Part shown: piece after piece, positions 7,242-56,529 of the stretch | How positions within the stretch are numbered: position 1 is the stretch's first letter | Layout: each line of letters opens with the position of its first letter | Assembly (NCBI GenBank): GCA_963730605.1 | Contig: CAVSSM010000002.1 | Span: 224,001 to 288,000, forward strand | DNA from: an uncultured Chlamydiae bacterium | GTDB lineage: Bacteria > Chlamydiota > Chlamydiia > Chlamydiales > SM23-39 | DNA length: 64,000 nt | Direction: 5' to 3' | Made by a program: the position numbers and the translations under genes | Notes under the pieces: generated by a model | Told to the model about the DNA's origin: nothing | What the model saw: the letters and a program-made list of their open reading frames with translations, nothing else | Database searches by the model: none

Positions 7242-8465
7242 ATGACATATAATCCCGTTATAGGAATTGGAACCGGTGCACCAGGAATGGGAGCCGCTGC
7301 CCCCCAAGATTTTTTTTCACCATTGCCCGAGTTGCCAATGGAGCTCATCCAGTCATTCTTAGGTCCAAAAAGCAACGATGCCCTCTCGCGGACAAATACA
7401 AGACTACGCGCGGTTTCATGCCCTTTTAGAGCCGCCGTTCTTCGCTTTGAATACAAAATTGCAGAGAACAAACCCATTACCCTACAAGAGCTAATAGAAC
7501 TAAAAAATCTCAATCCGGATTTTTCAAGTAGAATACCATTCAAACTTGATTTATCAAACAGCAATATTTCTGATGTCGGGCTGCAAGAGCTTATTGTATG
7601 CTTTCCTAATATTATTGAAATTAATGCACAACACTGTCAGGGTTTAACCGATGCCGGGCTGCAGCACCTGGCACATTTGAAAAATCTCACAAGCCTCGAC
7701 TTGACAGAATGCACCCAGGTCACCGACAACGGACTGCAGTTCCTGGCAAGTTTGATAAATCTCACAAGCCTCAGCCTGGAGGGATGCTCCCGGATCACCG
7801 ACGTCGGACTGCGGTGCCTGGCAAGTTTGAAAAATCTCACCACCCTCAACCTGGCATGGTGCCGCCGGATCCCCGACATCGGGCTGCAGTGCCTGGCAAA
7901 TTTGCCAAATCTCACTAACCTCAGCCTAGCACAGTGCACCCAAGTCACCGACATCGTGCTGCAGAGCCTGGCAGGTTTGATACATCTTACAAGCCTCGAC
8001 CTAGAAGGGTGCCACCAGATCACTGACGGGGGGCTGCGGCACTTGGCAGGTTTGATAAATCTCATAAGCCTCAACCTGACATGGTGCCCCAAGATCACCG
8101 ATACCGGGCTGCAGTACTCGGCAAGTTTGAAAAATCTCACAAACCTCAGTCTGAAGGGGTGCAACCGGATCACCGACAACGGACTGCAGTTCCTGGCAAG
8201 TTTGATAAATCTCACAAGCCTCAGCCTGGAGGGATGCTACCAGATCACCGACGGGGGGCTGCGGTACCTGGCGGCAGGTTTGGCAAAGCTCACACGTCTC
8301 AGCCTGAAGGGGTGCTTCCAGGTCACCAACATCGGACTGCAGCACCTGGCAGGTTTGGCCAAGCTCACAAGCCTTGACCTGTCAGAATGCCAACAGATTA
8401 CTGACGCCGGGCTGCAGTGCCTGGCAGGTTGTCGTATTATCCGATTTTTCGGTGTGTTCAGATAA
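7242..8465 (+). CDS. F-box/LRR (FBXL-like) effector
   Basis: LPELPMELIQSFL F-box-like motif plus many ~25-aa Cys-containing LRRs (ITDxGLxxLAxLxNLTSLxL). Confidence 0.88.
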   Translation: MTYNPVIGIGTGAPGMGAAAPQDFFSPLPELPMELIQSFLGPKSNDALSRTNTRLRAVSCPFRAAVLRFEYKIAENKPITLQELIELKNLNPDFSSRIPFKLDLSNSNISDVGLQELIVCFPNIIEINAQHCQGLTDAGLQHLAHLKNLTSLDLTECTQVTDNGLQFLASLINLTSLSLEGCSRITDVGLRCLASLKNLTTLNLAWCRRIPDIGLQCLANLPNLTNLSLAQCTQVTDIVLQSLAGLIHLTSLDLEGCHQITDGGLRHLAGLINLISLNLTWCPKITDTGLQYSASLKNLTNLSLKGCNRITDNGLQFLASLINLTSLSLEGCYQITDGGLRYLAAGLAKLTRLSLKGCFQVTNIGLQHLAGLAKLTSLDLSECQQITDAGLQCLAGCRIIRFFGVFR

Positions 8466-41625: not shown

Positions 41626-41794
41626 ATGATCTCTCCTCTTGGAGGGGCGGTTATAACAGCTGCGAGAGTAAATGTGAAGCAATTTTTTAGACCCTTTTGG
41701 GTTGTAACAATCAGGTAGTTAGGGTTATGCTGTCTCTCAACGTCAGAGTCGAACAAGATTTCTTCCCCCGTATTATTGGAAATGTTATGAATAC

Positions 41795-41963
41795 TAACCT
41801 GAGTTTTGGGTTCATTTTTCTATGAGATTCAAGGATATTTCGAGCATATTTTTGCGCTTTGGAGCCGAGAGCAATATCGGGACGAGCATCTTGCCGAGGC
41901 GAAAAGTCAAAAAGATGCCGAAAGAAATTGAAGCTCAGGCAAATGAACCCAAAACTCAGGTTA
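41795..41963. mobile_element. MITE family A, short internally deleted copy
   Basis: Same TIR as 5516-5854; interior matches the reverse complement of ~5516-5658. Confidence 0.88.
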
Positions 41964-41971
41964 CTAGTGGG

Positions 41972-43515: not shown

Positions 43516-43569
43516 TTATTCTTCCTTTGCATAACGACCAATCATAGTAACATATTGGTTGAAAAAATT

Positions 43570-43770
43570 TATACTCAAAGAATATGAAGAATCGGGAATA
43601 TAGCAAGGCTGCGGACACTTGAAAAAGCTCGGGGGTTCGAGCTTTTTCTAAGGAAAGCAGCCCAGAATTTGAGCCAGGCTTTGCCGGCGCCGGGTCCGGG
43701 GTCCCCAAAAACGCATCGTTTTTGGGGTGGGGCGCCGCCAGAAACCGATTCTTCATGTTATTTGAGTATA
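43570..43770. mobile_element. MITE family C
   Basis: TIR tatactcaaa.aa.atgaagaatcgg at both ends; carries the ccccaaaaacgcatcgtttttgggg module. Confidence 0.8.
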
Positions 43771-44015
43771 AGTGGTAAATTAGGCAAGCTGAATAGAGAG
43801 GGAACTTTTTGAAGAAATTCACATGCAACAGGGAAACTCTTTCTTTTCGAGAGGAGCCAGAAGATCTCCTGTACCACGAAAGAGGTTGTGTTCCATTTCA
43901 GATCTTTGATCCTTTCTAACGTCTCAATGGCATCCGCATGATGCTCATCGTCAGCGTTAAACACCGCGACCATGAACCCAGTATCGATGAGAATCTTTTT
44001 TGAGAATGCGAACAC
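43758..44015 (-). pseudogene. Truncated PIN/VapC toxin
   Basis: ILIDTG..VA..NADDEHH, VVQE; only 85 aa, with the stop lying inside the MITE. Confidence 0.75.
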
Positions 44016-44024
44016 GGAACAGCA

Positions 44025-44228
44025 CTACTCTTTGTGCAAGAGATCTTTGTAATTCGTGCTGGTAACTCCCGTTCCCGTCAGACATCCTATTAAGCCGGAT
44101 TTCTCCAAAATAGAGATTTTGGACATCGCAGTCCTTTTAGGTCTGCGACGCATTACCGCCTTCTTTTTTATCCTTCGAGCAGCTCTTTTCTTCGATCGAA
44201 CCGCTCTCTTCTTATTACGCACAGTCAT
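44025..44228 (-). CDS. Putative antitoxin for the PIN gene
   Basis: Basic N-terminus, LEKSGLIGC...STNYK; immediately upstream of the PIN gene. Confidence 0.6.
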   Translation of the reverse strand: MTVRNKKRAVRSKKRAARRIKKKAVMRRRPKRTAMSKISILEKSGLIGCLTGTGVTSTNYKDLLHKE

Positions 44229-44361
44229 ATCATGCTCACTTACAATGATTATTCGAGAAAAGCTCTCAGCCCTCAACGGGCATTATTTCCATGAGACTGC
44301 CTATCATAGCAGGCAGCAACAACAAATGGCACTCTAAAATGGGAGCGTCTGCCATTTGGAA

Positions 44362-44967
44362 TCAAAAAACCTCCAAATCAAGAACATCCAACTTCCCATC
44401 ACCGTTTAGATCAGTAGCAGACAAAGTGCCCTTGTTTTCATGAATTTCATAGAGCAATTTAAGATATTTACCAGCCACTAAACGCGGCAGCTCATCTTTG
44501 CGCTCTATCCCGTACCATTCATAGATCCCTTTGCTACCTTTTGAAGAGTTGCATCGACGACATGCCCAAACATGATTTTCAGCCGTATCCGTGCCATTTT
44601 TCACACGAGGAACAAGATGATCCCATGAGAGATTCTCTGTCGATCTACAATATTCGCAGCAAATTCCATCACATGACATCTGCATTTTTAGTTCTCTCAG
44701 AGCTGCGCTCATTTTTATCTCTCCAGACGCGAGCATTGTCATCTTGCTCATGATGAATCCATGACCATGAATCCCGGAGGATGCAGCAATGATCTTTGCG
44801 TACTGGTAAAAGATCAGATCTTTGATATACCGCGCCCGCTTAGGTTGTGTGAATTTTGACAGCAGATTTTTGGCTCCAGTAGCATTGCGGAGATCGAGTC
44901 CAACTTGCACAATGTTAACGAGATCGAGCAATGCGCTGGAGCAAAAAAGATGCTCAACAAAATTCAC
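44362..44967 (-). CDS. HNH endonuclease (start uncertain)
   Basis: CEYC..DHLVP..G....N...AC..CNSSKG. Confidence 0.85.
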   Translation of the reverse strand: MNFVEHLFCSSALLDLVNIVQVGLDLRNATGAKNLLSKFTQPKRARYIKDLIFYQYAKIIAASSGIHGHGFIMSKMTMLASGEIKMSAALRELKMQMSCDGICCEYCRSTENLSWDHLVPRVKNGTDTAENHVWACRRCNSSKGSKGIYEWYGIERKDELPRLVAGKYLKLLYEIHENKGTLSATDLNGDGKLDVLDLEVF

Positions 44968-45012
44968 TCAAGATAAGCGGGCGCGGTATAGTTTTAACGG
45001 CTGAAGGAGGCA

Positions 45013-45612
45013 TTATCCCCTGACAGTTACGTTCAATTTTTTCGGCTGGTTCGTCTCTTGGTCAACTAGCGTAATGGTAAAAGTAGGTTGATATTCATTC
45101 ACAGGGACGAAAAGCAGCTTATTGAAATGAGAATGGCGAAAAATAATCTGATCGCGCGCTACTTTCGCACTGAAATCATTATCTAAAGCTTCATTTGCTT
45201 TAGCAGATTTTACACCATCAACAATGGCTGGAATAGCTAAAGGCCATAGAAAAAGAGCCCCGACACCGTAACCAGTTGCCCTTCCAACAGTCGATGTGTG
45301 AACTTTATCCGCTACCTCTTCTGGTGTAGCAAAGGACACACTAACTCGATTTAAAGCAAAGAGGTAATCTTTTTCAGAGCTATTTTGAATGTATAACTGA
45401 ACGGGCTGATATCCTTCTGCAATTACATCTCTATCCAAATACTTTTTACAGTCAGCCTTGTTGAAGGCCTTAGCTCCGATAAAAACGCTGCCTGCGCCAA
45501 TGATGATTTCAGAAGCAAGGCTGTTTAATGGTGATGCACTGTAGCTTGCGCATCCTGACAGAAGGAGAAGCATTGCTAAAACTGCAATAAAAGGCAGAGA
45601 AATTTTACTCAT
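45013..45612 (-). CDS. Hypothetical lipoprotein
   Basis: LSGC lipobox. Confidence 0.75.
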   Translation of the reverse strand: MSKISLPFIAVLAMLLLLSGCASYSASPLNSLASEIIIGAGSVFIGAKAFNKADCKKYLDRDVIAEGYQPVQLYIQNSSEKDYLFALNRVSVSFATPEEVADKVHTSTVGRATGYGVGALFLWPLAIPAIVDGVKSAKANEALDNDFSAKVARDQIIFRHSHFNKLLFVPVNEYQPTFTITLVDQETNQPKKLNVTVRG

Positions 45613-45873
45613 AAGACTCCATAAAATAATGAAAGACTGAATGATTCTAAACAAAAACAAAAAAGATGATCAACTCAAATAAATTATTTCCATTTGAACT
45701 ATTTCCATTTTTGAAACAGTTGCTTCCAGGATGAGTTTCTGGCTTATTTTTTAAATGCCTTGAGAGCAGAAGGACCTGGGACGCCCTCTCGCAGCGCTCC
45801 GCGCTTGCTGCCGGGCCGGCGATCTAGCGCCCTGCAGGGCGCTTCGATTCGAGTCCTCCACGGAAGCCGCGCA

Positions 45874-45923
45874 GGGGGCGGGCGGACTAGAACCGCCGAA
45901 GACCGAAGTCGGGGGATTTACAG
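45874..45923 (-). repeat. Divergent tRNA-Tyr 3' half (distal att copy)
   Basis: Matches 56312-56361 except for T-arm region substitutions, four of them forming two compensatory T-stem pairs. Confidence 0.85.
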
Positions 45924-46154
45924 ACGGATGGAATACAATCTCAACCAATGATTATTCACGCTTATCAACTTGAAAATCAGAATATTGATCACAATAAAGA
46001 GTTGACGACTATTGTTAAAAATTGGGTAAAATAATCTATTGCTGTCCCATTTTTGTCCCACCAGCCCCTGACCTCTCCCTCTTGCTAGGCCCAAGATTCC
46101 AAAGGAAATTTTGCGCATAGCATTTACACAAAAACTCTAAATGAACTAGACTAA

Positions 46155-46164
46155 TGACTAGTCA
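46155..46164. promoter_or_regulatory. Palindromic operator candidate upstream of Phd-VapC
   Basis: TGACTAGTCA inside actag/accag repeats. Confidence 0.5.
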
Positions 46165-46181
46165 GACCAGACCAGGTGAAT

Positions 46182-46478
46182 ATGAAAACTAAACCTTGCT
46201 CAAGAAGAAGGCTTAGCCATCGCAAGAGACATAAAAAATGGCAAGTCCAGGAAGCAAAATCAAAGTTTTCTCAATTGATCAAGGAAACAGCTTCTTCTGG
46301 ATACCAAACAATTACAAAAAATGGCGAAACTGTTGCCTATGTTGTTTCTAAAGAAGACTTTGAGATGTATTTGAAGCCTCAGAAATCGCTTCTTGAAGTT
46401 TTAGACCAATGCCCGTACCCAGAAGTCGATTTCGATACCAAGCGAAGAACGGATACGATTAGGGAAATCGATTTATGA
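46182..46478 (+). CDS. Phd/YefM antitoxin
   Basis: WQVQEAKSKFSQLI...QTITKNG. Confidence 0.9.
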   Translation: MKTKPCSRRRLSHRKRHKKWQVQEAKSKFSQLIKETASSGYQTITKNGETVAYVVSKEDFEMYLKPQKSLLEVLDQCPYPEVDFDTKRRTDTIREIDL

Positions 46479-46915
46479 CCTATCTACTCGATACATGTAC
46501 GATTTCTACCCTGAGAAAGAAAGGAACTTCTGAAGGAAAGAAATTAAGAGAGTGGGTATCAAGGATGGAAGATCGTTTTTTTTTCATAAGCGTTTTGACA
46601 ATTGGCGAACTCCTATTCGGAATTTCCAAATTGAGTGAAAAAGAAGAGAAAATAAAAAACGCTTTGCAAAATTGGCTCGTGGGCGACCTCATCCCTAGTT
46701 TCGGAAATAGAATTTTGTCTATCGATCAACAAATTTGCTCTATTTGGGGTGATATGACCGCTCAGGCGGCTAAAAAGGGAGTTATTCTCCCAATGGGCGA
46801 TGCCCTAATTGCTGCAACTGCGATCAAATATGATCTGATTGTCATCACCCAAAACACCAAACACTTCAAATCTTCTGGAGCTCGTCTTTTCGATCCTCTC
46901 ATCCACCATCCATAG
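46475..46915 (+). CDS. vapC: VapC PIN toxin
   Basis: YLLDT, ISVLTIGEL, DALIAATA, TQNTKHF; ATGA overlap with the antitoxin. Confidence 0.92.
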   Translation: MTYLLDTCTISTLRKKGTSEGKKLREWVSRMEDRFFFISVLTIGELLFGISKLSEKEEKIKNALQNWLVGDLIPSFGNRILSIDQQICSIWGDMTAQAAKKGVILPMGDALIAATAIKYDLIVITQNTKHFKSSGARLFDPLIHHP

Positions 46916-47041
46916 AAGTTCATGCGGAATTTGATACGCTTGAAGAGGACTTTCTGGCCGCGCTTGTCCACGATTTAGTAGAGGATGTTCAGCCTTCACC
47001 AGCGATCGGACAGGTTCTTTTGAGCGATCTCAAGATCGGTC

Positions 47042-47305
47042 TTATTCATCAACCCTTTCGTTCAGAGGATCAGTGCCCTCGGCGATCGACAGCATCTCAT
47101 AAACCTTCTCGCTGATGGCCTCTATTCCGTAGGCCCATGAGCGGAGAATATCTTCTTTTTCATCATCGGTCTTCGTCTGGAACCAATCCCACGTATCTTT
47201 TGGACGAAGAGGGCGAAAACGTCCTTCACCAGCAAATAGCTCCTGTTCTAGAAGATTTTGTAGCAGCACGGCAAGCCTGCCGAGATCCTCAATTCGTTGT
47301 CGCAT
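47042..47305 (-). CDS. Hypothetical protein
   Basis: 87-aa ORF with AGGAG RBS. Confidence 0.6.
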   Translation of the reverse strand: MRQRIEDLGRLAVLLQNLLEQELFAGEGRFRPLRPKDTWDWFQTKTDDEKEDILRSWAYGIEAISEKVYEMLSIAEGTDPLNERVDE

Positions 47306-47452
47306 CGTCGTCGACTCCTAGGGTGATAACGTTAATGCGTGGATTCACGAGTTCCCTCGTTTTAGCGTCTTTATGGGACCTTTCCAAGCGGGTTTCAATT
47401 TTCTTGTGGCCTCATTCTTCGCAATGGGCATAAGACCGTCCCAATGGTCTTT

Positions 47453-48715
47453 ATATTTGTTCAGGGGGTATAGCAGGGCTGGCTAAAAATGGTGGGGGCC
47501 GACGAACCTGTTTTCCAGGCGCCTAGGGCTTCCACAAGATAATCTAAACATTTCTTCCCCTGATGCTTCAGGGTAGTTACAACAGTATTGGTCCTCTCGA
47601 TGAACCGATCGCCACGTTCGCTTTTGGAACCGTAGCTAACTCTACGGGTAATCACGATCCCTCTTAGATCCCTTTCAGCCTGATTGTTCGTTGGCTCTAC
47701 GCCATCTCGAGTGGCAAAAATCCACAGATTTTGCGCCCTCCGCAAGAGAGCTCGGGCGAACCGTTTGAGGGAGGCGCTATGCTTGCCTTTCGTAGATGCA
47801 ACCAGTAGCCCATATGCAAAATCATCTCGGTACTGCCTGCTTTTGCGTCTAAATGAACGCCGGCTTCTCCGTTTTTCCCGGTAGTCTCGCCAGAGTTCGA
47901 AGATCGTTTTGAGATATTCTAGCATCACTTGGCCCCACTCGCCATCGAGACCTGCTCGCTCGGCAAAACGCTTTATGTCCCGTTTGAGATGAGCAAGACA
48001 GAACTGATGTGGCCACTGGAAGCGATAAATTGCTAACCTGTCAGTAACGAAGGCTACACGTTTTGTTGCAGTAGTGCCTAATAGGGCATCTCTGCATTCG
48101 GCTCCTCTCCCTTCCTGGATCTTGTACACGGCCCCGGATGCAGTGGACATAATCCATACAAATGCTCGTTTTCCCCAGCATTTCCAACCTGTTTCTTCAA
48201 CATGTTTTGTTTCGTTACTACCATGCACCTGCTTTTCGATCTCTTCGTACGATGGCTTAAGAGCGGCTGACATACGATTTTCTATATTGCTCTGGGTTCC
48301 AACTGCTGCTCGAAGATCGAGCCCTTCTTGCAGGATGCTTAATGCAATCCGACGGCTTAGTCGGCATGTACCAGTCAGGAACCCCATGAAGGCAGACAGT
48401 CGTGTTCCAAATGCCGATGGGCCGACATGGCTGGGAAGTGGGGCTACCCCATCTTTTTTCTTGGGGGCATCATTCTTGCCTTTTTGGTCCGTTGAGGGTG
48501 GCTTGGAACTGTTTTTGGAATTGAGGTTGATCTGTTCTTTCAAACGGGCATTTTCTTCACGTAGTCTGGAGTTTTCGACCTTGAGCGAGGCCACCTCACT
48601 ACGGAGCAATCGAATTTCTGTGAGCAGCTCTTCGTAACTGGCGTTCATGCTGTTCTAGCTTAGCATGTTGGCGAATATTCACCTAAAAAATTTGCTATAC
48701 CCCCTGAACAAATAC
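47453..48715 (-). mobile_element. IS66-family single-ORF element, probably defective
   Basis: TIR tatttgttcagggggtatagc at both ends; no matching TSD seen. Confidence 0.85.
47461..48648 (-). CDS. IS66 family transposase
   Basis: NSKNSSKPPS, QFCLAHLKRD, EPTNNQAERDLR; Zn-finger segment seems missing and DET reads EET. Confidence 0.88.
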   Translation of the reverse strand: MNASYEELLTEIRLLRSEVASLKVENSRLREENARLKEQINLNSKNSSKPPSTDQKGKNDAPKKKDGVAPLPSHVGPSAFGTRLSAFMGFLTGTCRLSRRIALSILQEGLDLRAAVGTQSNIENRMSAALKPSYEEIEKQVHGSNETKHVEETGWKCWGKRAFVWIMSTASGAVYKIQEGRGAECRDALLGTTATKRVAFVTDRLAIYRFQWPHQFCLAHLKRDIKRFAERAGLDGEWGQVMLEYLKTIFELWRDYREKRRSRRSFRRKSRQYRDDFAYGLLVASTKGKHSASLKRFARALLRRAQNLWIFATRDGVEPTNNQAERDLRGIVITRRVSYGSKSERGDRFIERTNTVVTTLKHQGKKCLDYLVEALGAWKTGSSAPTIFSQPCYTP

Positions 48716-48859
48716 AGACGACCAGTTAAAACTCTAGGCTTGGTAGAGGGGTACATATCGAGGATGTGTTGGATATTACTGTCCCATGAGAGATCCCTTG
48801 GGAGCTTAAAATATACCGAATTTTATCGCGAATTTCGGCCCGTTTTTTCATAGGGAATT

Positions 48860-49426
48860 TGGGGGCGGCCAGACGCCCTCGCGCTGAGCTGCTTCGCAGC
48901 TCATGCTGCCGGGCCGGCGATCCCCCGCGGTTTTTGCAGAGCAAAAAACATCGACGGGGGATTCGAGTCCGCCACGCGACACGCGCAGGCGTGTCGCTCG
49001 CCCCCAAAAAGCAAAAAGCCCCGCGTGAAGCGGGGCTGCTTTTTGGGGGCGGCCAGACGCCCTCGCGCTGAGCTGCTTCGCAGCTCATGCTGCCGGGCCG
49101 GCGATCCCCCGCGGTTTTTGCAGAGCAAAAAACATCGACGGGGGATTCGAGTCCGCCACGCGACACGCGCAGGCGTGTCGCTCGCCCCCAAAAAGCAAAA
49201 AGCCCCGCGTGAAGCGGGGCTGCTTTTTGGGGGCGGCCAGACGCCCTCGCGCTGAGCTGCTTCGCAGCTCATGCTGCCGGGCCGGCGATCCCCCGCGGTT
49301 TTTGCAGAGCAAAAAACATCGACGGGGGATTCGAGTCCGCCACGCGACACGCGCAGGCGTGTCGCTCGCCCCCAAAAAGCAAAAAGCCCCGCGTGAAGCG
49401 GGGCTGCTTTTTGGGGGCGGCCAGAC
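48860..49426. repeat. 184-bp tRNA-linked tandem repeat (3 full units)
   Basis: gggggcggccagac starts at 48861, 49045, 49229 and 49413; units look identical by eye. Confidence 0.95.
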
Positions 49427-49465
49427 TCGAACTGGCGGAGACCGAAGTCGGGGGATTTACAGTCC
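49412..49465 (-). repeat. tRNA-Tyr 3' half copy (att)
   Basis: Identical to 56311-56364. Confidence 0.95.
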
Positions 49466-49719
49466 GCCTAAATCCAATTTAACCCCATCCCTACCAATAC
49501 ATATCAACATAACAATCAGAATCTTGCAGCATTTCTTGGGCTGTTAAAAATTGTTTTGAATTGGTAGCTATTGAACCCTGCTGTCCCACCAATGCCCCGT
49601 GACGCTATTAAAGAAGACTTGAATAACAAGCCCTTTTACGTTACCCTTATTGAAGAAAACTTGAATAACGCTCGATTTTCCAAGCCGTTATTCTCGGATG
49701 CTTGAATAAGGAGCTCTGC

Positions 49720-50853
49720 ATGAGAAGCGGCAGATACATTACACAGCCCAACCAGTATAAAGCATTCATTCCAACAGACCTTCCTCCCGAGCCCCCCATC
49801 CGGATAGAAGGAGAAATGCACGGCCTCCTCACCGACGCCAACATTGCCATTGGAAAACTAGACACCATGGGCTATTTGGCACCGAATCTAAGCCACATCA
49901 TCGCCATGTACGTCCGCAAAGAAGCACTCCTCAGCTCTCAAATCGAAGGAACGCAAGCCTCCTTCGAGGATATTTTTGAATACGAAAGCCAAATCCCCGT
50001 GAAAAACGTGAATGACGTCGAAGAGGTCGTCAATTACATCAAAGCTCTGAACCACGGTATGCAAAGACTCAACGACTTCCCTATGAGCATACGTCTCATT
50101 AAAGAAATTCACGCCATCCTCTTGGAAGGAGTGCGCGGAAAAGACAAAACACCGGGCGAATTCAAAAAAAGCCAAAATTGGATTGGTCCAGCCGGGTCCA
50201 CTCCAAGCACAGCTTCTTTCATTCCGCCACCACCAAAAGAGGCGATGGATGCCATGGGACAACTTGAGCTTTTTCTACACAAAAATTCCAGTATTCCACT
50301 ACTGATCAGCTGTGCGCTTATCCATTACCAGTTTGAGACAATCCATCCCTTTCTCGATGGCAACGGCAGGTTGGGCAGGCTCCTAATCACCTTCTATCTC
50401 TATTGGAAAAAGGCTCTTCAACATCCTACGCTCTACCTCAGTTACTATTTCAAAATACATCGCCAAGAGTACTACGACCGCCTCAACCTCGTCCGCGCCA
50501 AAGGCGATTATGAGCAATGGGTCACCTTCTTTCTCCAAGGCGTCATTTGGACTTCCAACTCCGCCCTACAAACCATCAAAACCGCCCTCCAGCTCCAAGA
50601 AACCCACAAAAAGCGACTCATCACAGCCAAACTCTCTACCCCCTACGCTATTGCCCTCCTTGATTATCTCTTTGAAAAACCCCACCTTTCCATAAAAGAC
50701 GCAGCCACCCACCTCAAAACCTCTTATCAAAGCGCAAAAACGCTCATGCAGCAACTTGTCTCTCTCGAAATCCTCAAAGAAATCACTGGTAAACGCCGCG
50801 ACAAACGCTATAGCTATTGGGAATATTTAGACCTGCTGTCAGAAGGGACATGA
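49720..50853 (+). CDS. Fic family protein
   Basis: HPFLDGNGRLGR, EALLSSQIEGT; AAGGAG RBS; upstream ttgaataa repeats. Confidence 0.95.
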   Translation: MRSGRYITQPNQYKAFIPTDLPPEPPIRIEGEMHGLLTDANIAIGKLDTMGYLAPNLSHIIAMYVRKEALLSSQIEGTQASFEDIFEYESQIPVKNVNDVEEVVNYIKALNHGMQRLNDFPMSIRLIKEIHAILLEGVRGKDKTPGEFKKSQNWIGPAGSTPSTASFIPPPPKEAMDAMGQLELFLHKNSSIPLLISCALIHYQFETIHPFLDGNGRLGRLLITFYLYWKKALQHPTLYLSYYFKIHRQEYYDRLNLVRAKGDYEQWVTFFLQGVIWTSNSALQTIKTALQLQETHKKRLITAKLSTPYAIALLDYLFEKPHLSIKDAATHLKTSYQSAKTLMQQLVSLEILKEITGKRRDKRYSYWEYLDLLSEGT

Positions 50854-51015
50854 ACAGGTTTCTTTTGCTGTCCAATGAATCACAAACTCCGTTTTCCTAG
50901 CTTAGCAGCGCGAAGGCAGCCGATCCGGTTGCTAGTCCGGCATAGCTAAGAGCGCGCGCAGGCGTGTCGCTCGCCCCAAAAAGCAAAAAGCCCCGCGTGA
51001 AGCGGGGCTGCTTTT

Positions 51016-51066
51016 TGGGGGCGGCCAGACTCGAACTGGCGGAGACCGAAGTCGGGGGATTTACAG
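51016..51066 (-). repeat. tRNA-Tyr 3' half copy (att), with adjacent terminator
   Basis: Identical to 56311-56361; ~50953-51015 matches the end of the 184-bp unit. Confidence 0.95.
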
Positions 51067-51552
51067 GCGCGTTACATTCTGAGTTTGCCAACACGAGGAA
51101 AATGATAGCAATAAGAGAATTAAAAGTTTAGGTTTCTCTGATGTTTGCTGATTTTTGCTATCCATTCTGATTTGAGCGTATCCCTTGCACTAAAATTGCA
51201 CCGCGGCTCTCGATAGGTCTGCTGATTCCTTCAATGGGAGCCAAGGAGAATGAGACAATCAGAAGACATAAATCTGAAATTGAAGCAGATCACGAGGATT
51301 TTCAGTCCTCCTAAGCCGCTTCCGGCCGTTGCCTTCAAATTCCTTCAATCAACCAAAACAGCCAAATTCTATAGGAGAAGTCGGATGGAAAGCGAGAAAT
51401 TCCGATAATCGAAGCTGATCCCGAACTAGTAAAGGGAATTGGCAATTCCGGCATTTTTCCGGGAAGAACAGCCTTTTCCTTAATCCTAGGGATATAAGAG
51501 GTCACTTTTCATTGATGCACCATTTGAAAAAAAAGTTTATCAGTATACATAA

Positions 51553-51570
51553 ATTACCAATATTGGTAAT
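51553..51570. promoter_or_regulatory. Perfect 18-bp palindromic operator candidate
   Basis: ATTACCAATATTGGTAAT just upstream of the toxin gene. Confidence 0.6.
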
Positions 51571-51598
51571 GATGTATTGCATGCATGATACCTGCCTA

Positions 51599-51952
51599 AT
51601 GAGACCGTTGCTCTGGATAGGTTCCTCTAAGAAGGATCTCAAGGAAATGCCTGTAGGCGTGCGAAAGGAAATTGGCCACTCGTTGAGAGAACTTCAGAAG
51701 GGAAGAGATCCGGGGAACACCAAGCCTCTTAAGCATCTTCATGAACCAATATCAGAAGTGGTCGTAGACGAACGAGAAGGGACTTTTAGGGCGGCCTACA
51801 CTGTGGAGTTCAAGAACGTCGTAGCTGTATTGCACGTGTTCCATAAAAAAAGCAAATCGGGCATTGCTACGCCGAAGAAGGAGATCGATTTGATTCTCCA
51901 AAGGCTGAAGCAGGCGAGAGTCGATTATCATGAATGGAAGAGGGAAAAATGA
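51599..51952 (+). CDS. RelE/ParE (Gp49-like) toxin
   Basis: WIGSSKKDL, FRAAY, VLHVFHKKSKSGIATPK. Confidence 0.9.
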   Translation: MRPLLWIGSSKKDLKEMPVGVRKEIGHSLRELQKGRDPGNTKPLKHLHEPISEVVVDEREGTFRAAYTVEFKNVVAVLHVFHKKSKSGIATPKKEIDLILQRLKQARVDYHEWKREK

Positions 51953-52311
51953 AAGAAAAAGATTTTGTCACCACCGATAATGTTTTTGACGATCTCGGCT
52001 TAGATGATTCTGTCGAAATGATTACTCGATCAGACCTGATGTCGGAAGTTGTTAATCTTATCCGAAAAAGCGGTCTTAGCCAGAAGGAAATCGCTGGAAT
52101 TTTAGGGATTAGCGCTCCTAAAGTATCATCTCTTATGACTGGTAAAATCAATGATTTCAGCAACGACACCCTTTTGAACTACCTCACGTTGCTTGGCTGC
52201 AACATAGAGATCAAAGTTGTGCCTCAACGGAGAATATCCAAGTCGGTCAAAAGAGGAACAATGACGCTGCGAAAACAAAGAGTAAGACGACGAAGTAGGG
52301 CTAGTACCTGA
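51949..52311 (+). CDS. XRE HTH antitoxin
   Basis: NVFDDLG, LSQKEIAGILGISAPKVS. Confidence 0.9.
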   Translation: MKEKDFVTTDNVFDDLGLDDSVEMITRSDLMSEVVNLIRKSGLSQKEIAGILGISAPKVSSLMTGKINDFSNDTLLNYLTLLGCNIEIKVVPQRRISKSVKRGTMTLRKQRVRRRSRAST

Positions 52312-53462
52312 CCACAAAAGTTTTCATGGGTAGAGCCTCTTCATTTTCACTCGCGCATCTGGGATAGCAAATCCCCAAAGGATCTTTGCCCGTCTAGCAT
52401 TTCTATCTGATACATAAGCGGCCACCTCTCTACCGAGAACTTCTTTTGAGCCTATTCGCCTTTTGAGGCACTGACCGCCAAGAACAGAAATTTCAATCTC
52501 TGCCATGTTCAACCAACTTGCATGTTTTGGCGTATGGCGCACCTCTAATTTCTTAATGATCCTCCTGGCTTCTTCGGGCTCAAACGTCTCGTAGAGATTA
52601 GCCAGTCGATGCGTATTCAAATTGTCCATGACAACCCTAATTTTTTCTGCCTCGGGAAAATGTTTGTCCACCAGATCCTTCATGCACTCGGCAAAATCTT
52701 TTTTTGTTCTCTGGTCTGTGACTTTTATTTCCCGCCAGCCTCCCAAGGGCTGTACAAAAACAAAGAGGTTGCTTGTTCCATTCCTTTCGTACTCATAATC
52801 TCGGCGTTTGACTCTCCCTGGCACTGCGGCAATTGGCGCCAACACATCATCTACCAATTGGACTGGTGTTTCATCAAAACACACAACGGGTTTCTTTTCG
52901 TTCAGCGGCTCCTCATATAAATCTAAAACATCTTCCATCCGACAAATATACTCGTAATCCACTTCTGGAACACACCAACTCTTTACTTGCCATGGCTTTA
53001 TTTCGTTTTTTTTAATGTTCTGCGAACCGTTTCGTCCGATATGGAATCTGTCAACTCTAGCGTAATGCAACGATCCGCAAGTAGCTGCATTGTCCAGCAG
53101 GCGCGTCCTTCGGGCGCCTCGCTGCAAGCAAGCGCGATTAAATGGGCTTTAGCCTTTCCAACCATCTTCTCCGGTCTTCCGGATCGCGCTTTTTCATTGA
53201 GTGATTGTTGTAGCCCGTGTTCACAGTAGGCTTTTCTTGTATTGTAAACGCTCACCTCGCTGCACCGTAGCAAAGAGGCAATCTCTTTATCTGGTTTCTT
53301 CTCATCAGCGAATAACAGAGTTTGCGCTCTTCTGATAATCCGCGCGGATGACTTCCCTTTTCTAACAATGTCCTCGAGTTCGCTGCGCACCTCAACTGTG
53401 AGATGAACGGACCATTTTTTGTTCATAGCTGCCTCCAAATGAAAGGCATATATGGAACACTA
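52303..53462 (-). mobile_element. IS630 family element with frameshifted transposase (53438-52998 then on to 52324)
   Basis: HTH orfA; A8 run at ~53006-53013 joins LKK to NEIKPW; DET, DNLNTH, SWLNMAEIE; ends approximate. Confidence 0.88.
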
Positions 53463-53680
53463 TTCAAACATTTTTTTAAAAACTTTAAAATCCTATGGTT
53501 TAGTTAAAGAGCCTCGCTTTGCGGCCTTGCATCCCAAGGCATTTCGCAGTAGCACAACTTGCTCTCTTTAACTCACACTATTTCAGACTGATAGGATTTA
53601 AATAAGACGACCGAATTTAATAGGTCAAAAGACAACCCTTTTCATTGAGAAGAACATCTCAAAAAAAAGAGTCGACGATT

Positions 53681-54910
53681 TTAAATGGGAGACTGTTTTT
53701 TGCCCCGCTTCGGCCTCCATCCGTGCCGCTTGTCAAATTGTGAGCATTCTTTTTTAATCAGTTTTTTAGTGCATGCTTTCTGTATTTCGGGGGCAGCTTC
53801 TTTCCATACGAGCACCCGAATGGAATCGTAAGTGCGCTGTTTTCTTTGTTCACGAGACAGTTTCAGCAGCTCCCGTTCAATTATGGATTGGACAAATTCC
53901 CTTGCCTCATTTTTTAGCTGCTGCGGCTTTTTAAGAACGGGCTCATTTAACATCTCCTCTTCAAGCAAGAGAACAAATCGCTGCACCAACCGCCATAGTT
54001 TATCTCGTGGCACTGGCGCCTTGCCCCAGTCCGCTCCAAAGGCGCTCAGAAACGACTGCAACTGCCATTGACAGCTAAGCTCATCGCAACGAATAAGATC
54101 ATTTGGGAGCGGTCCCACAGGCGTGGGCTTTATTTTGCTAAAATGGGCTATCCGGTCGAGCCAACTGAATGTAGATAACAATGAGCTATCTGTGGCTGCC
54201 TCCCAGTCCTTTTCCGTAGTCGTCCTAAGCAATACCGCGTACTCATCTTCTGGATATTGGATCTTTTGAATCACGCCAAACTTTATGTCGTGGTCAATCC
54301 TGTCTGCCCAATCATTCTTCCGGATCACTGCACTAATAAAGCTGTGTCCTAATTTATCATACAACAGACTCCCTTCCGGAGAATCAGGAAAAACTTCTGT
54401 CGGTTTTTCGACTCGGATAGGCGGCTCATCAAACGATAGACACTCTGCTACCACCCGAACCGTGGCAAAACCATCAAAAATCCTCTCATCACCGTATCTG
54501 GCAACCGAATCGCATACCTGCATAAAATCGTTACACACTCCGTGCCAAAACGAGCCCATAAAAATCAATTCGGGACGTTCACCCTTGAGATACGCTTTAT
54601 ACTCCTGTACGGCCTTGGCGCAAGGCCACCATCTGTTTACAGCAGCCTCTTCTAAAATGTTCACCTTTGACAGCAGCCAATCCATCATGCGCTGTTTACA
54701 AGCCTTCTGTTCCTGAGCCTCTTTCTCTACCGCCTTTGTTAAATCGGCACAGATTTTTGCACTGGGAGGACTCCTCTTAACCTTGTCCATCAATTTCGAT
54801 AGAAGGATTAAAAAGCCCGCTGGACTATCTGCCAATTCTAAAAGGTTAAGTGTGGGAAGAATTTGCTCTCGGAATCGATCAATTTGCACTTGTTTTACCG
54901 TTTTGCTCAT
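53681..54910 (-). CDS. Hypothetical protein overlapping the integrase 3' end
   Basis: ~409-aa ORF; no family recognised. Confidence 0.7.
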   Translation of the reverse strand: MSKTVKQVQIDRFREQILPTLNLLELADSPAGFLILLSKLMDKVKRSPPSAKICADLTKAVEKEAQEQKACKQRMMDWLLSKVNILEEAAVNRWWPCAKAVQEYKAYLKGERPELIFMGSFWHGVCNDFMQVCDSVARYGDERIFDGFATVRVVAECLSFDEPPIRVEKPTEVFPDSPEGSLLYDKLGHSFISAVIRKNDWADRIDHDIKFGVIQKIQYPEDEYAVLLRTTTEKDWEAATDSSLLSTFSWLDRIAHFSKIKPTPVGPLPNDLIRCDELSCQWQLQSFLSAFGADWGKAPVPRDKLWRLVQRFVLLLEEEMLNEPVLKKPQQLKNEAREFVQSIIERELLKLSREQRKQRTYDSIRVLVWKEAAPEIQKACTKKLIKKECSQFDKRHGWRPKRGKKQSPI

Positions 54911-55985
54911 CTGAAACCTCATCTAATAGATTGGCTTGGGTGCGTTCCATCACGTTAGCGATGTGTTTTTTGCTATAGTGACGGTAGCGGACGGTCATGC
55001 GCGGACTGCGGTGGCCGAGAATTTCCATTAGCTCGCCTTGGGAGGCACCGTTCATCGCCATGTGAGAGCAGGCTGTGTGGCGAAGGTCATGGAAGCGGAA
55101 GTCATCGATGTTGGCCTCTTTGGCGGCCTTGATGAAGGCGTGGCGGATGTCCGCGACGGGTTTGTGAGCGCCGAGGCGGCGGGCGGGGAAGACGTAGCCC
55201 TTGCGTTCCTCGCTGTAGGTTTGGCACTCGCGGAAAGTGCGTTCGATTTCATTGATGATGGGGACGATGCGGCTGTCGCCGTTCTTGGTTTCGTGAAGGA
55301 TGACTTGGCGTTGTTCGAAATCGATGTCGACCCATTTGAGGTTGGCGATCTCGCCAAAGCGCATGCCGCTGAGGAGTGCGAGCTTGACGATGGAGTAGAG
55401 GTAGGGATGGGGTGAACGCTTGCACGCGTCGAGGAGGGCGGCGATCTCTTCTTTGTCGAGGAAGCGGCTGCGTCCTTTCGATTCGCTCGGCTTGGAGACT
55501 TTGGTGACGGGATTCTCTTCGATCCACTGCCATTCTTTGACGGCGATGGTGAAGGCTTTGGAAATGGCGGCCAAGTAACGGTTGATGGTGCTGCCGCTTC
55601 GCTTGGTCTCTCGATGGGTTGTGCCCGCGAGGAGTTTGTCTCGCCCTGCAACGATATGGGAGGGCAGGATGTCGGCAAGGAGGAAATGGCCGATTTCATT
55701 GCGCCACCACATGAGGAGCCGCTTTTGCTTGGCGGCGTACTTTTCGTAACGAGGGCACCACTCGGTGATAAAGCGGTCGATCAGCTCGGCGACGTTGTGG
55801 CGCTTGGCCTCGGCCGTGCGGAAATGGCGGCCGTCGCGGATGGCCGACTCGACGTCTTGAATCCATTTCTTGGCGAGCGTCTTGGTGCGGAAGGAGGCGC
55901 GCTGCGGTTTGCTGCCTTTGATGCGCACTTCGGCATGGAAGCTCACTTCCCCGTCACTTTTCACCACTTCTCTAATCGAACCCAT
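54879..55985 (-). CDS. Tyrosine recombinase / integrase
   Basis: SGMRFGE, TKNG, FHDLRH, LGH, RY catalytic residues; next to tRNA-Tyr. Confidence 0.96.
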   Translation of the reverse strand: MGSIREVVKSDGEVSFHAEVRIKGSKPQRASFRTKTLAKKWIQDVESAIRDGRHFRTAEAKRHNVAELIDRFITEWCPRYEKYAAKQKRLLMWWRNEIGHFLLADILPSHIVAGRDKLLAGTTHRETKRSGSTINRYLAAISKAFTIAVKEWQWIEENPVTKVSKPSESKGRSRFLDKEEIAALLDACKRSPHPYLYSIVKLALLSGMRFGEIANLKWVDIDFEQRQVILHETKNGDSRIVPIINEIERTFRECQTYSEERKGYVFPARRLGAHKPVADIRHAFIKAAKEANIDDFRFHDLRHTACSHMAMNGASQGELMEILGHRSPRMTVRYRHYSKKHIANVMERTQANLLDEVSDEQNGKTSAN

Positions 55986-56310
55986 ATGACTCCAACCTTA
56001 AAGGAATGAATATAGCTCCAACTGTATTAAAGAGCAACAGGGGGATGGGCAATCCCCAATCAACCAAGCTAAACAAGACTAATAACCAACGAGATACGAA
56101 GTGCGTAAAATGCACAATACGCAATCCTTACGCAAATGAAGAAAAAAATGCGGAGAGATTGCGATCTGAAAAAGACATAAATGAGGTTGCGGGCGATGCG
56201 ATGCAGTTTTATGCGGTTTCGTTTGGCCGAGTGCGTAAAATTTGCGTAACGGAAGTGCCGGTGGAGGCACTTTTTAGGTCGGATTTTTTGGGTAATTTTG
56301 TCTATGAGAA

Positions 56311-56392
56311 TGGGGGCGGCCAGACTCGAACTGGCGGAGACCGAAGTCGGGGGATTTACAGTCCCCTGCAATTGCCGCTATGCGACACCCCC
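56311..56392 (-). tRNA. tRNA-Tyr(GTA)
   Basis: Cloverleaf with ctGTAaa loop, long variable arm, TTCGAGT. Confidence 0.95.
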
Positions 56393-56445
56393 CGGAAAAA
56401 CAAAGAGCTTAAATGTTCAAGATCTCTGCTCTCAACAAGTATTAA

Positions 56446-56517
56446 TGCTGGCGAAAGGAATTGAACCCTCAACCATCCGATTACAAGTCGGGCGCTCTAC
56501 CATTGAGCTACACCAGC
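56446..56517 (-). tRNA. tRNA-Thr(TGT)
   Basis: gctggtgtagctcaatgg...ctTGTaa...gttcaatt...gccagca. Confidence 0.95.
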
Positions 56518-56529
56518 AAAATAGGGTTC

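What the first reader, a model, noticed from the sequence alone, without database searches (positions are those of the whole stretch)
45775..56392. tRNA-Tyr-anchored tandem cassette array served by one integrase
Seen: three copies of the tRNA-Tyr 3' half (45874, 49412, 51016), each ending near the anticodon arm, divide the region into units. Unit 1 has Phd-VapC, a small ORF and IS66. Unit 2 is about 1.6 kb with Fic only. Unit 3 has RelE/XRE, IS630, an unknown ORF and the only integrase. Every unit carries a TA pair or Fic gene just inside its att, pointing the same way. Known: tyrosine integrases target tRNA anticodon loops and can build tandem islands. Inference: this may be an integron-like array of small, integrase-less, TA-stabilised cassettes mobilised in trans, rather than one island.
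Basis: partly seen in the sequence, partly recalled or inferred. Interest (0 to 1): 0.85.

Follow-up and report, generated by a model that had tools for sequence, protein, structure and literature searches.

The report
Stacked island remnants at chlamydial tRNA-Tyr
Three small DNA inserts are stacked behind a tyrosine tRNA gene of an uncultured chlamydia; their docking sites show that they likely came from different mobile-element families and were cut down by deletion, so the one integrase next to them is likely not the enzyme that moves them all.

Summary
Observation confirmed; interpretation only partly. Three tRNA-Tyr 3' halves start exactly at the anticodon loop, each with an arm-type heptamer pair 137 nt upstream. 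The pairs differ: units 1 and 2 carry TGGGACA-type arms, unit 3's right end a GGTGCA pair, the integrase a TTACGCA pair. In relatives arm motif tracks integrase clade (23 of 28; shuffled mean 3.4), and 6 of 6 complete integrase-bearing elements have matched arms. TGGGACA arms belong to a satellite-like (int-xis-primase-terminase) family only 44% identical to this integrase, not found in this 83%-complete genome. Unit 1 holds a backbone relic of that family (orf87 plus a broken terminase start). Unit 3 is a deletion fusion that lost its likely excisionase. So this is tandem accretion plus deletion (CIME-like), not an integron. What survives: integrase-less units are common at this tRNA across Chlamydiota (28 of 34 examined), content varies, TA/Fic genes cap 15 of 25 TGGGACA right ends, and some pieces moved between lineages. 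No circles could be tested. This scan noted similar arrays on other DNA.

The parts
56311..56392 (-). intact tRNA-Tyr(GTA); attL of the newest element
56232..56249 (-). left arm pair TTACGCA.TTACGCA, 112 nt after the core start
   Evidence: same pair on both arms of the 92%-identical island of G001 and of G428
56117..56134 (-). inverted arm pair upstream of the integrase gene
   Evidence: same layout in autonomous relatives
54879..55985 (-). tyrosine integrase, 368 aa, catalytic residues present, predicted N-terminal three-strand arm-binding fold; TTACGCA clade
53681..54922 (-). 413-aa ORF at the position held by a 360-380-aa ORF in related islands; function unassigned
   Evidence: no family hit; C-terminal part 40% to the ORF after a G147 integrase
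53486..53608 (-). leader of the lost xis-like gene; the deletion junction falls at its start codon
   Evidence: 82% to G001 island 7988-8111; junction
52301..53485 (-). IS630 copy lacking its 16-bp terminal repeat on the integrase side
   Evidence: five other full copies at 99.9-100% identity carry it; loose contig ends at 53486
51512..52311 (+). Gp49/RelE toxin + HTH_37 antitoxin pair (likely starts 51593 and 51949)
   Evidence: 75% nt homologue in G001's tRNA-Phe-type region
51274..51464 (-). nested tRNA-Phe-type right end: TCCCGGA.TGCCGGA pair 159 nt before a Phe anticodon loop and decayed Phe 3' half
   Evidence: a pair at the same 159-nt spacing in 4 of the 12 other displaced Phe-type sites listed
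51186..51203 (-). right arm pair CGGTGCA.TAGTGCA, 137 nt before the Tyr core; family differs from the integrase
   Evidence: same spacing in own tRNA-Met and tRNA-Lys islands
51016..51066 (-). att copy 3 (anticodon loop + 3' half)
50955..51015 (-). start of a tRNA-linked hairpin repeat, nearly identical to the one after att copy 2
50869..50881 (-). degenerate TGGGACA-type left-arm remnant of unit 2 (weak)
   Evidence: inference
49702..50853 (+). Fic (SoFic-like) gene
   Evidence: 90% aa homologue next to a TGGGACA right end in G120
49582..49599 (-). right arm pair CGGGGCA.TGGGACA of unit 2, 137 nt before the core
49412..49462 (-). att copy 2
48858..49411 (-). three identical 184-bp tRNA-linked hairpin repeats, each ending in about 15-17 nt of the tRNA 3' end; lie between att copy 2 and unit 1's left arm
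   Evidence: (fold z about -8), no credible Rfam match
48780..48798 (-). left arm of unit 1 (degenerate first heptamer + TGGGACA), at the usual distance once the repeats are subtracted
47454..48714 (-). IS66-family element, 22-bp inverted repeats, no target duplication seen
47042..47305 (-). orf87, backbone gene of autonomous TGGGACA elements
   Evidence: 55% to the ORF between terS and terL of the G219 element
46915..47049 (-). broken, truncated start of a terminase-large-subunit-like gene (two stops)
   Evidence: 56% over 37 aa, E 4e-6, to G219 terL
46176..46915 (+). phd-vapC pair
   Evidence: 95.4% nt to G001 against 81% for host genes
46043..46060 (-). right arm pair TGGGACA.TGGGACA of unit 1, 137 nt before the core
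45874..45923 (-). att copy 1 = ancestral host 3' half (different T-arm allele)
   Evidence: 49 of the first 50 nt identical to the intact tRNA-Tyr of G001 and of the closest contig L248
45775..45873 (-). older, diverged tRNA-linked hairpin repeat
   Evidence: orthologues in G001 and L248

Best explanation
The locus is likely a stack of three integrative elements of different integrase families that would have entered the tRNA-Tyr anticodon loop one after another and were then cut down by deletion, leaving att-bounded, TA- or Fic-capped remnants that are predicted to move only with a matching helper integrase, not with the resident one. Steps. Shown: each copy starts at the 7-nt loop with an arm pair 137 nt upstream; the arm motifs differ between units; the outermost copy matches the tRNA allele of the closest relatives; unit 1 keeps both TGGGACA arms plus a backbone relic; unit 3 joins a TTACGCA left part to a foreign right part at an IS630-end/xis-start junction. 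Inferred: each arrival restores the tRNA with its own 3' half and pushes older units outward (order 1, 2, 3); the N-terminal domain reads the arm motif, so this integrase would not assemble on TGGGACA arms; deletions remove integrase and replication genes and sometimes an att, fusing neighbours; TA genes beside the right arm likely resist loss; a passing TGGGACA-family satellite-like element would be able to re-mobilise units 1-2 in cis or in trans.
For: Arm pairs at 137 nt at displaced atts here and in relatives; the exact TGGGACA-pair + core pattern in 17 of 401 genomes, reversed control 0. Nearest-neighbour integrase shares the arm motif in 23 of 28 cases, shuffled mean 3.4, max 13. Six of six complete integrase-bearing elements in other genomes have matched arms (G001b, G428, G399, G219, G225 at tRNA-Leu, G026). 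TGGGACA integrases are 44-45% identical to the resident one; none of that type was found in this genome, best 58% with TTCCCCA arms. Unit 1 relic. Unit 3 junction. At least four integrase clades sit at chlamydial tRNA-Tyr (TTACGCA, TGGGACA, TGGCACA, TTCCGTA), and junctions between neighbours often join different families. Fusion across an att also seen in G017 versus G236. The same process is described for Streptococcus CIMEs of 1.2-13 kb (PMC7563491, passages) and Dehalococcoides ssrA islands (PMC3146451, passages).
Against: No integrase fragment in any of 24 integrase-less units by a sensitive HMM, and backbone remnants in only 2 of 28: cleaner than random decay predicts. Arm specificity is a correlation across related proteins (same score for N-terminal, catalytic and whole sequence), not a binding test. 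Unit 2's left arm is barely recognisable. The three youngest 3' halves are identical although assigned to two families, which needs gene conversion or local origin. The genome is 83% complete, so a cognate integrase could be unassembled.
Confidence: 0.72

Rival explanations
1. One reading: an integron-like array in which the single resident integrase excises and inserts all units in trans.
For: All units share the same 7-nt core and 137-nt arm geometry; the integrase is intact; mixed-arm units exist in relatives (G001a, G002b), which relaxed arm reading could also explain.
Against: Arm motifs differ and track integrase clade; unit 3 lost its xis-like gene and own right arm; integron-integrase model scores 51.8 bits against a cut-off of 265; no attC-type RNA family; most arrays in relatives have no integrase in them.
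Confidence: 0.07
2. A standing family of non-autonomous cassettes: TGGGACA-armed, TA-capped units are maintained and spread as such, mobilised in trans by rare helper elements; unit 1's relic only records how one member arose.
For: 16 of 17 genomes with the exact right-end pattern show no cognate integrase, which was seen in 5 of 401 genomes; the left-arm/cargo junction without integrase is 92.5% identical between G017 and G236 (different families; host gene 61%); G017's integrase-less array sits at a non-tRNA site among housekeeping genes; TA/Fic first in 15 of 25 such right ends versus 3 of 18 others.
Against: G236's contig has no housekeeping anchor and could be misbinned; shared right ends (G225/G435, 91% versus 66%) could have moved while still autonomous; most integrase-less left ends lack the inverted arm pair of autonomous elements, which may be needed for integration; one search scored only 4 candidates per genome; no circle seen.
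Confidence: 0.15
3. Units are dead relics whose present turnover is driven by homologous recombination between the tRNA halves and hairpin repeats, with no further site-specific activity.
For: Unit 2 is flanked by 93 bp of perfect identity plus 19 bp more; 184-bp repeats amplified threefold; att alleles within a genome are often identical.
Against: Arm pairs stay at a fixed 137 nt in many lineages, which drift would erode; integrations at secondary sites (G001 at the end of an rlmD-like gene, G017) keep core geometry.
Confidence: 0.06

Closest known systems
CIMEs and tandem accretion at att sites (Streptococcus; PMC7563491 and PMC5704250, passages read)
   Same: Decayed elements that keep attL/attR but lack recombination genes, 1.2-13 kb, stacked with an integrase-bearing element at the target gene; cis-mobilisation needs an integrase that recognises the outer att sites.
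   Different: Parents here look phage-satellite-like (int, xis-like, primase, terminase), not ICEs/IMEs; several arm families share one tRNA; TA/Fic genes cap the right end; transfer route unknown.
Dehalococcoides ssrA genomic islands (PMC3146451, passages read)
   Same: Multiple tandem islands behind one RNA gene, separated by direct repeats; 15 lacked the integration module and were proposed to be CIMEs.
   Different: Serine recombinase module and a T-loop site there; tyrosine integrases at the anticodon loop with paired arm sites here.
Tycheposons / PICI-like elements of Prochlorococcus (bioRxiv 10.1101/2020.12.28.424599, passages read)
   Same: tRNA-anchored elements with xis, primase/helicase and terS; successive arrivals push older ones outward and leave partial tRNAs and remnants.
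   Different: Not tested for homology to tycheposon hallmark genes; host is an uncultured chlamydia; one parent carries a large-terminase-like gene as well.
Integrons (IntI, attI, Pc, attC; features recalled)
   Same: Array of small units next to one tyrosine recombinase.
   Different: Integrase is lambda/HP1-like with an arm domain, far below the IntI cut-off; sites are tRNA halves with arms; units come from several families.
TA-stabilised composite island CGI48/GI21 of Shewanella (PMC8978831, abstract and outline only)
   Same: A TA pair helps keep a composite tRNA-anchored island.
   Different: Stabilisation was measured there; here it is only inferred from position.

Membership tests
CIME / tandem accretion | att-bounded unit at the target gene, in tandem with an integrase-bearing element | tested here: met
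CIME / tandem accretion | no integrase or transfer genes in the unit | tested here: met
   HMM search of units 1-2 empty; families
CIME / tandem accretion | derived by deletion from an autonomous element | tested here: met
   unit 1: orf87 + terminase start; unit 2: only arm family and a degenerate left arm
CIME / tandem accretion | parent is a conjugative or mobilisable element (ICE/IME) | tested here: inconclusive
   parents show primase, helicase, terminase hits; relaxases were not searched for specifically
CIME / tandem accretion | cis-mobilisation shown with a neighbouring element | not testable with these tools
   needs excision/transfer assay; contigs at depth 1-5 showed no joints
Integron | IntI-type integrase | tested here: not met
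   TIGR02249 51.8 bits versus cut-off 265; best solved-structure hit HP1 integrase
Integron | attC sites between cassettes | tested here: not met
   boundaries are tRNA halves with arm pairs; no such Rfam match
Integron | one recombinase compatible with all cassette ends | tested here: not met
   by arm-motif comparison only; no biochemical test
Integron | common promoter Pc driving promoterless cassettes | tested here: inconclusive
   6 promoter-like sites versus 10 expected by chance; TA/Fic genes point toward the tRNA, not away from it
PICI-like / phage satellite (parent elements) | int - xis/AlpA-like - primase/helicase - terminase small subunit | tested here: met
   G219, G399, G001 islands; xis identity is a lead only (Atlas 0.89)
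PICI-like / phage satellite (parent elements) | induction and packaging by a helper phage | not testable with these tools
   no helper known to me for these hosts

The most novel reading that the evidence does not exclude
Across Chlamydiota, TGGGACA-armed, TA-capped, integrase-less cassettes are a live non-autonomous family that rare terminase-bearing satellite elements move in trans, even between host families; several integrase families share one tRNA anticodon loop but stay orthogonal through a readable arm code (YRVK in the second strand with TGGGACA, HAEV with TTACGCA, FRVQ with TGGTGCA). This would imply an unknown, probably phage-like vector among intracellular chlamydiae and offer a set of orthogonal integrases for one site.
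Probability: 0.22. Interest if true: 0.72.

Novelty: new member of a known kind. Interest (0 to 1): 0.4.

Why it matters
As it stands it is a well-resolved chlamydial case of a known process (tandem accretion and decay), and it corrects the one-integrase idea with a test anyone can repeat: read the arm pair 137 nt from each att. It shows tRNA-Tyr as an order-wide landing site for small TA-capped units and points to satellite-like parent elements with terminase genes in environmental chlamydiae, for which my searches found no paper. If the arm code and trans mobilisation hold, it gives a route for gene flow in intracellular bacteria and candidate orthogonal integrases.

Tried and rejected
Excision junctions in public runs: two lays on 7 soil-metagenome runs gave short contigs at depth about 1-5 and no att joints; no power, not evidence. 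An 11-nt direct repeat at 51264/56173 as alternative island ends: rejected because the 92%-identical G001 island ends at a Tyr att with a TTACGCA pair. A special non-autonomous left-arm lineage: rejected, the motif after TGGGACA is also in the autonomous G225 element. GIY-YIG nuclease linked to the hairpin repeats: motif scan empty. Rfam: only tRNAs above gathering score; the RRE and ycf2 rows are far below cut-off. Promoter scan below chance. Further att or arm pairs left of 45775: none with the patterns used. The careful integrase tree did not finish; only the quick tree was seen. G028's 12-kb repeat was dropped from unit counts because it duplicates whole tRNA-Thr/Tyr genes; G323b gave no att. 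Look-up of earlier findings by place gave nothing. No paper supplements were opened.
Full report
Observation. The window lies on contig C2 of a 2.2-Mb, 83%-complete genome. Its integrase's closest relative (92%) is in a record titled Chlamydiae bacterium, which matches same-genus genome G001 in contig length and position. tRNA-Thr and tRNA-Tyr are at 56445-56518 and 56311-56392 on the minus strand. Three displaced 3' halves lie at 51016-51066, 49412-49465 and 45874-45923, each starting at the anticodon loop.

Arm sites. Every displaced att has a pair of heptamers, period 11, starting 137 nt before the core: TGGGACA.TGGGACA (unit 1), CGGGGCA.TGGGACA (unit 2), CGGTGCA.TAGTGCA (unit 3). The integrase's own left arm is TTACGCA.TTACGCA at +112. 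Such pairs occur at 3.4e-4 per position in this genome. Arm sites bind the N-terminal domain of such integrases (PMC11963761, passages). The model of this integrase has a three-strand sheet plus helix at residues 2-50, and the whole model aligns with lambda integrase over 362 columns. Among 33 integrases to which I assigned a motif by eye have a motif shared with another; the nearest neighbour has the same motif in 23 of 28, against 3.4 on average and at most 13 in 2000 shuffles. Related proteins are not independent, and the score is the same for all domains, so this shows clade tracking, not binding. Six of six complete integrase-bearing elements in other genomes have matching left and right motifs, as do the own-genome tRNA-Asn and tRNA-Lys islands. 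TGGGACA arms go with the integrases of G399, G219, G228 (at Tyr-type atts), G225 (tRNA-Leu) and G210 (two copies); the first four are 44-45% identical to the resident enzyme. None was found in this genome.

Unit 3 is a fusion. G001 carries the same integrase on an intact 8.2-kb island (int, 85-aa ORF, primase-like gene, small terminase-like ORF, cargo) with TTACGCA pairs on both ends. In the window, homology runs to the base before that 85-aa ORF's start codon and then enters an IS630 lacking its 16-bp terminal repeat; five other copies, 99.9-100% identical, keep it. The lost ORF has no family hit; the nearest named Atlas clusters are HTH_17 and excisionase at 0.89, a lead only. The right part is foreign: RelE/XRE lies next to a TCCCGGA.TGCCGGA pair 159 nt before a Phe anticodon loop, a spacing seen at Phe-type sites in relatives, followed by the GGTGCA pair.

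Unit 1 is a remnant. With the 552 nt of repeats subtracted, it has a TGGGACA left arm at the usual place. orf87 is 55% identical to the gene between terS and terL of the autonomous G219 element, and is followed by a broken start of that terL (56% over 37 aa, E 4e-6). The IS66 shows no target duplication, so an IS-adjacent deletion is possible. Unit 2 has only Fic, a TGGGACA-type right arm and a doubtful left-arm trace. The outermost att matches the intact tRNA allele of G001 and of the closest contig found (93% nt in host genes), with the same hairpin element behind it, so it is the host's old 3' half. That contig has none of units 1-3 and a different 2.5-kb integrase-less TA unit.

Relatives. 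I examined 34 att-to-att units from fetched loci, chosen partly by kinship and partly by arm pattern or integrase, so not a random sample: 6 hold an integrase, 28 do not (0.9-14.1 kb, median 3.2 kb), and 2 of the 28 hold backbone remnants. A sensitive HMM over the first 28 units found four whole integrases and no fragments. The exact TGGGACA right-end pattern is in 17 of 401 genomes, control 0; only G399 among them showed a cognate integrase (4 candidates scored per genome). Scored by hand, a TA or Fic gene is first inside 15 of 25 integrase-less TGGGACA right ends, all pointing inward, versus 3 of 18 ends of other families; one unassigned pair was counted as no. Signs of transfer: G017/G236 share the left-arm/cargo junction at 92.5% and TA genes at 93-98% against 61% for a host gene; G225/G435 91% against 66%; phd-vapC here versus G001 95.4% against 81%. 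G236's contig lacks a housekeeping anchor. The own tRNA-Met locus on C7 is an ordinary tandem array with whole or broken integrases in its units.

Mechanism. Most likely (0.72): successive integration at the anticodon loop by elements of different arm families, then deletion, with TA genes favouring retention and re-mobilisation only by a cognate helper. Against it: remnants are rare in relatives, specificity is untested, and the three youngest 3' halves are identical. Rivals: a standing trans-mobilised cassette family (0.15), the single-integrase integron-like array (0.07), recombination between repeats only (0.06). Public runs could not test circles.

Comparison. It works like CIMEs formed by accretion (PMC7563491 and PMC5704250, passages) and like Dehalococcoides ssrA islands (PMC3146451, passages); the parents resemble PICI-like tycheposons (bioRxiv 10.1101/2020.12.28.424599, passages). 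TA stabilisation of a composite island is shown in PMC8978831 (abstract). It fails the integron tests. Searches (listings only) showed no paper on these chlamydial arrays; subscription papers and supplements were not seen. Earlier notes of this scan describe similar arrays in other lineages; they are not independent support. Integron features are recalled, from no call.

Verdict. Real, well bounded, a new member of a known kind; interest 0.4. The boldest open reading, a live trans-mobilised family with an arm code and a phage-like vector, has probability about 0.22.

Noticed in passing
window 48858-49411, 50955-51015, 45775-45873; G000 C2:404868-405203 (137-bp x3 after tRNA-Ser), C10 after tRNA-Ser, C6 after tRNA-Met, C1:442939-443098 after tRNA-Leu: Family of tRNA-linked hairpin repeats, each built from an inverted copy of its own tRNA's 3' end plus shared hairpin modules and ending in a direct copy of the 3' end; z about -8; also behind tRNA-Tyr and att copies in many relatives. 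How they spread is unexplained.
   Followed up: partly
L226 (G219), L123 (G399), L042 (G001), L148 (G428), L228 (G225): Satellite-like 8-11-kb elements in Chlamydiota with int, xis-like, primase/helicase and terminase-like genes; G219 has both small and large terminase hits but no capsid gene was seen.
   Followed up: partly
integrase N-termini: Second-strand residues follow the arm motif (YRVK-TGGGACA, HAEV-TTACGCA, FRVQ-TGGTGCA, YRAR-TGGACCA), also in the 55%-identical G210 enzymes: a possible recognition code.
   Followed up: partly
L042:6299 (G001); L049:8332 (G017); G225 C2:1378323; L208, L216 (G210): Tyr-type elements at non-tRNA secondary sites, one at the 3' end of an rlmD-like gene whose last codons mimic the anticodon arm.
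   Followed up: partly
G000 C7:195000-218400: Tandem array at tRNA-Met with GGTGCA and TGGACCA arms and whole or broken integrases in the units.
   Followed up: partly
window 43761-45660: Accessory genes beyond the last att (lipoprotein-like ORF, HNH, PIN-type TA); the TA has a 76% homologue inside a tRNA-Tyr unit of L248, so this may be an older unit that lost its att.
   Followed up: partly
window 41792-41966, 43569-43771, 44826-44990: Three kinds of MITE-like inverted-repeat elements with 37-86 genome hits each; two interrupt the PIN and HNH genes.
   Followed up: no
G000 C1:2770-9350: Second TTACGCA-clade element (55% integrase) with frameshifted xis-like and primase genes and no tRNA called nearby.
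   Followed up: no
L079 (G028): 12-kb duplication bounded by two complete tRNA-Thr/tRNA-Tyr pairs.
   Followed up: no
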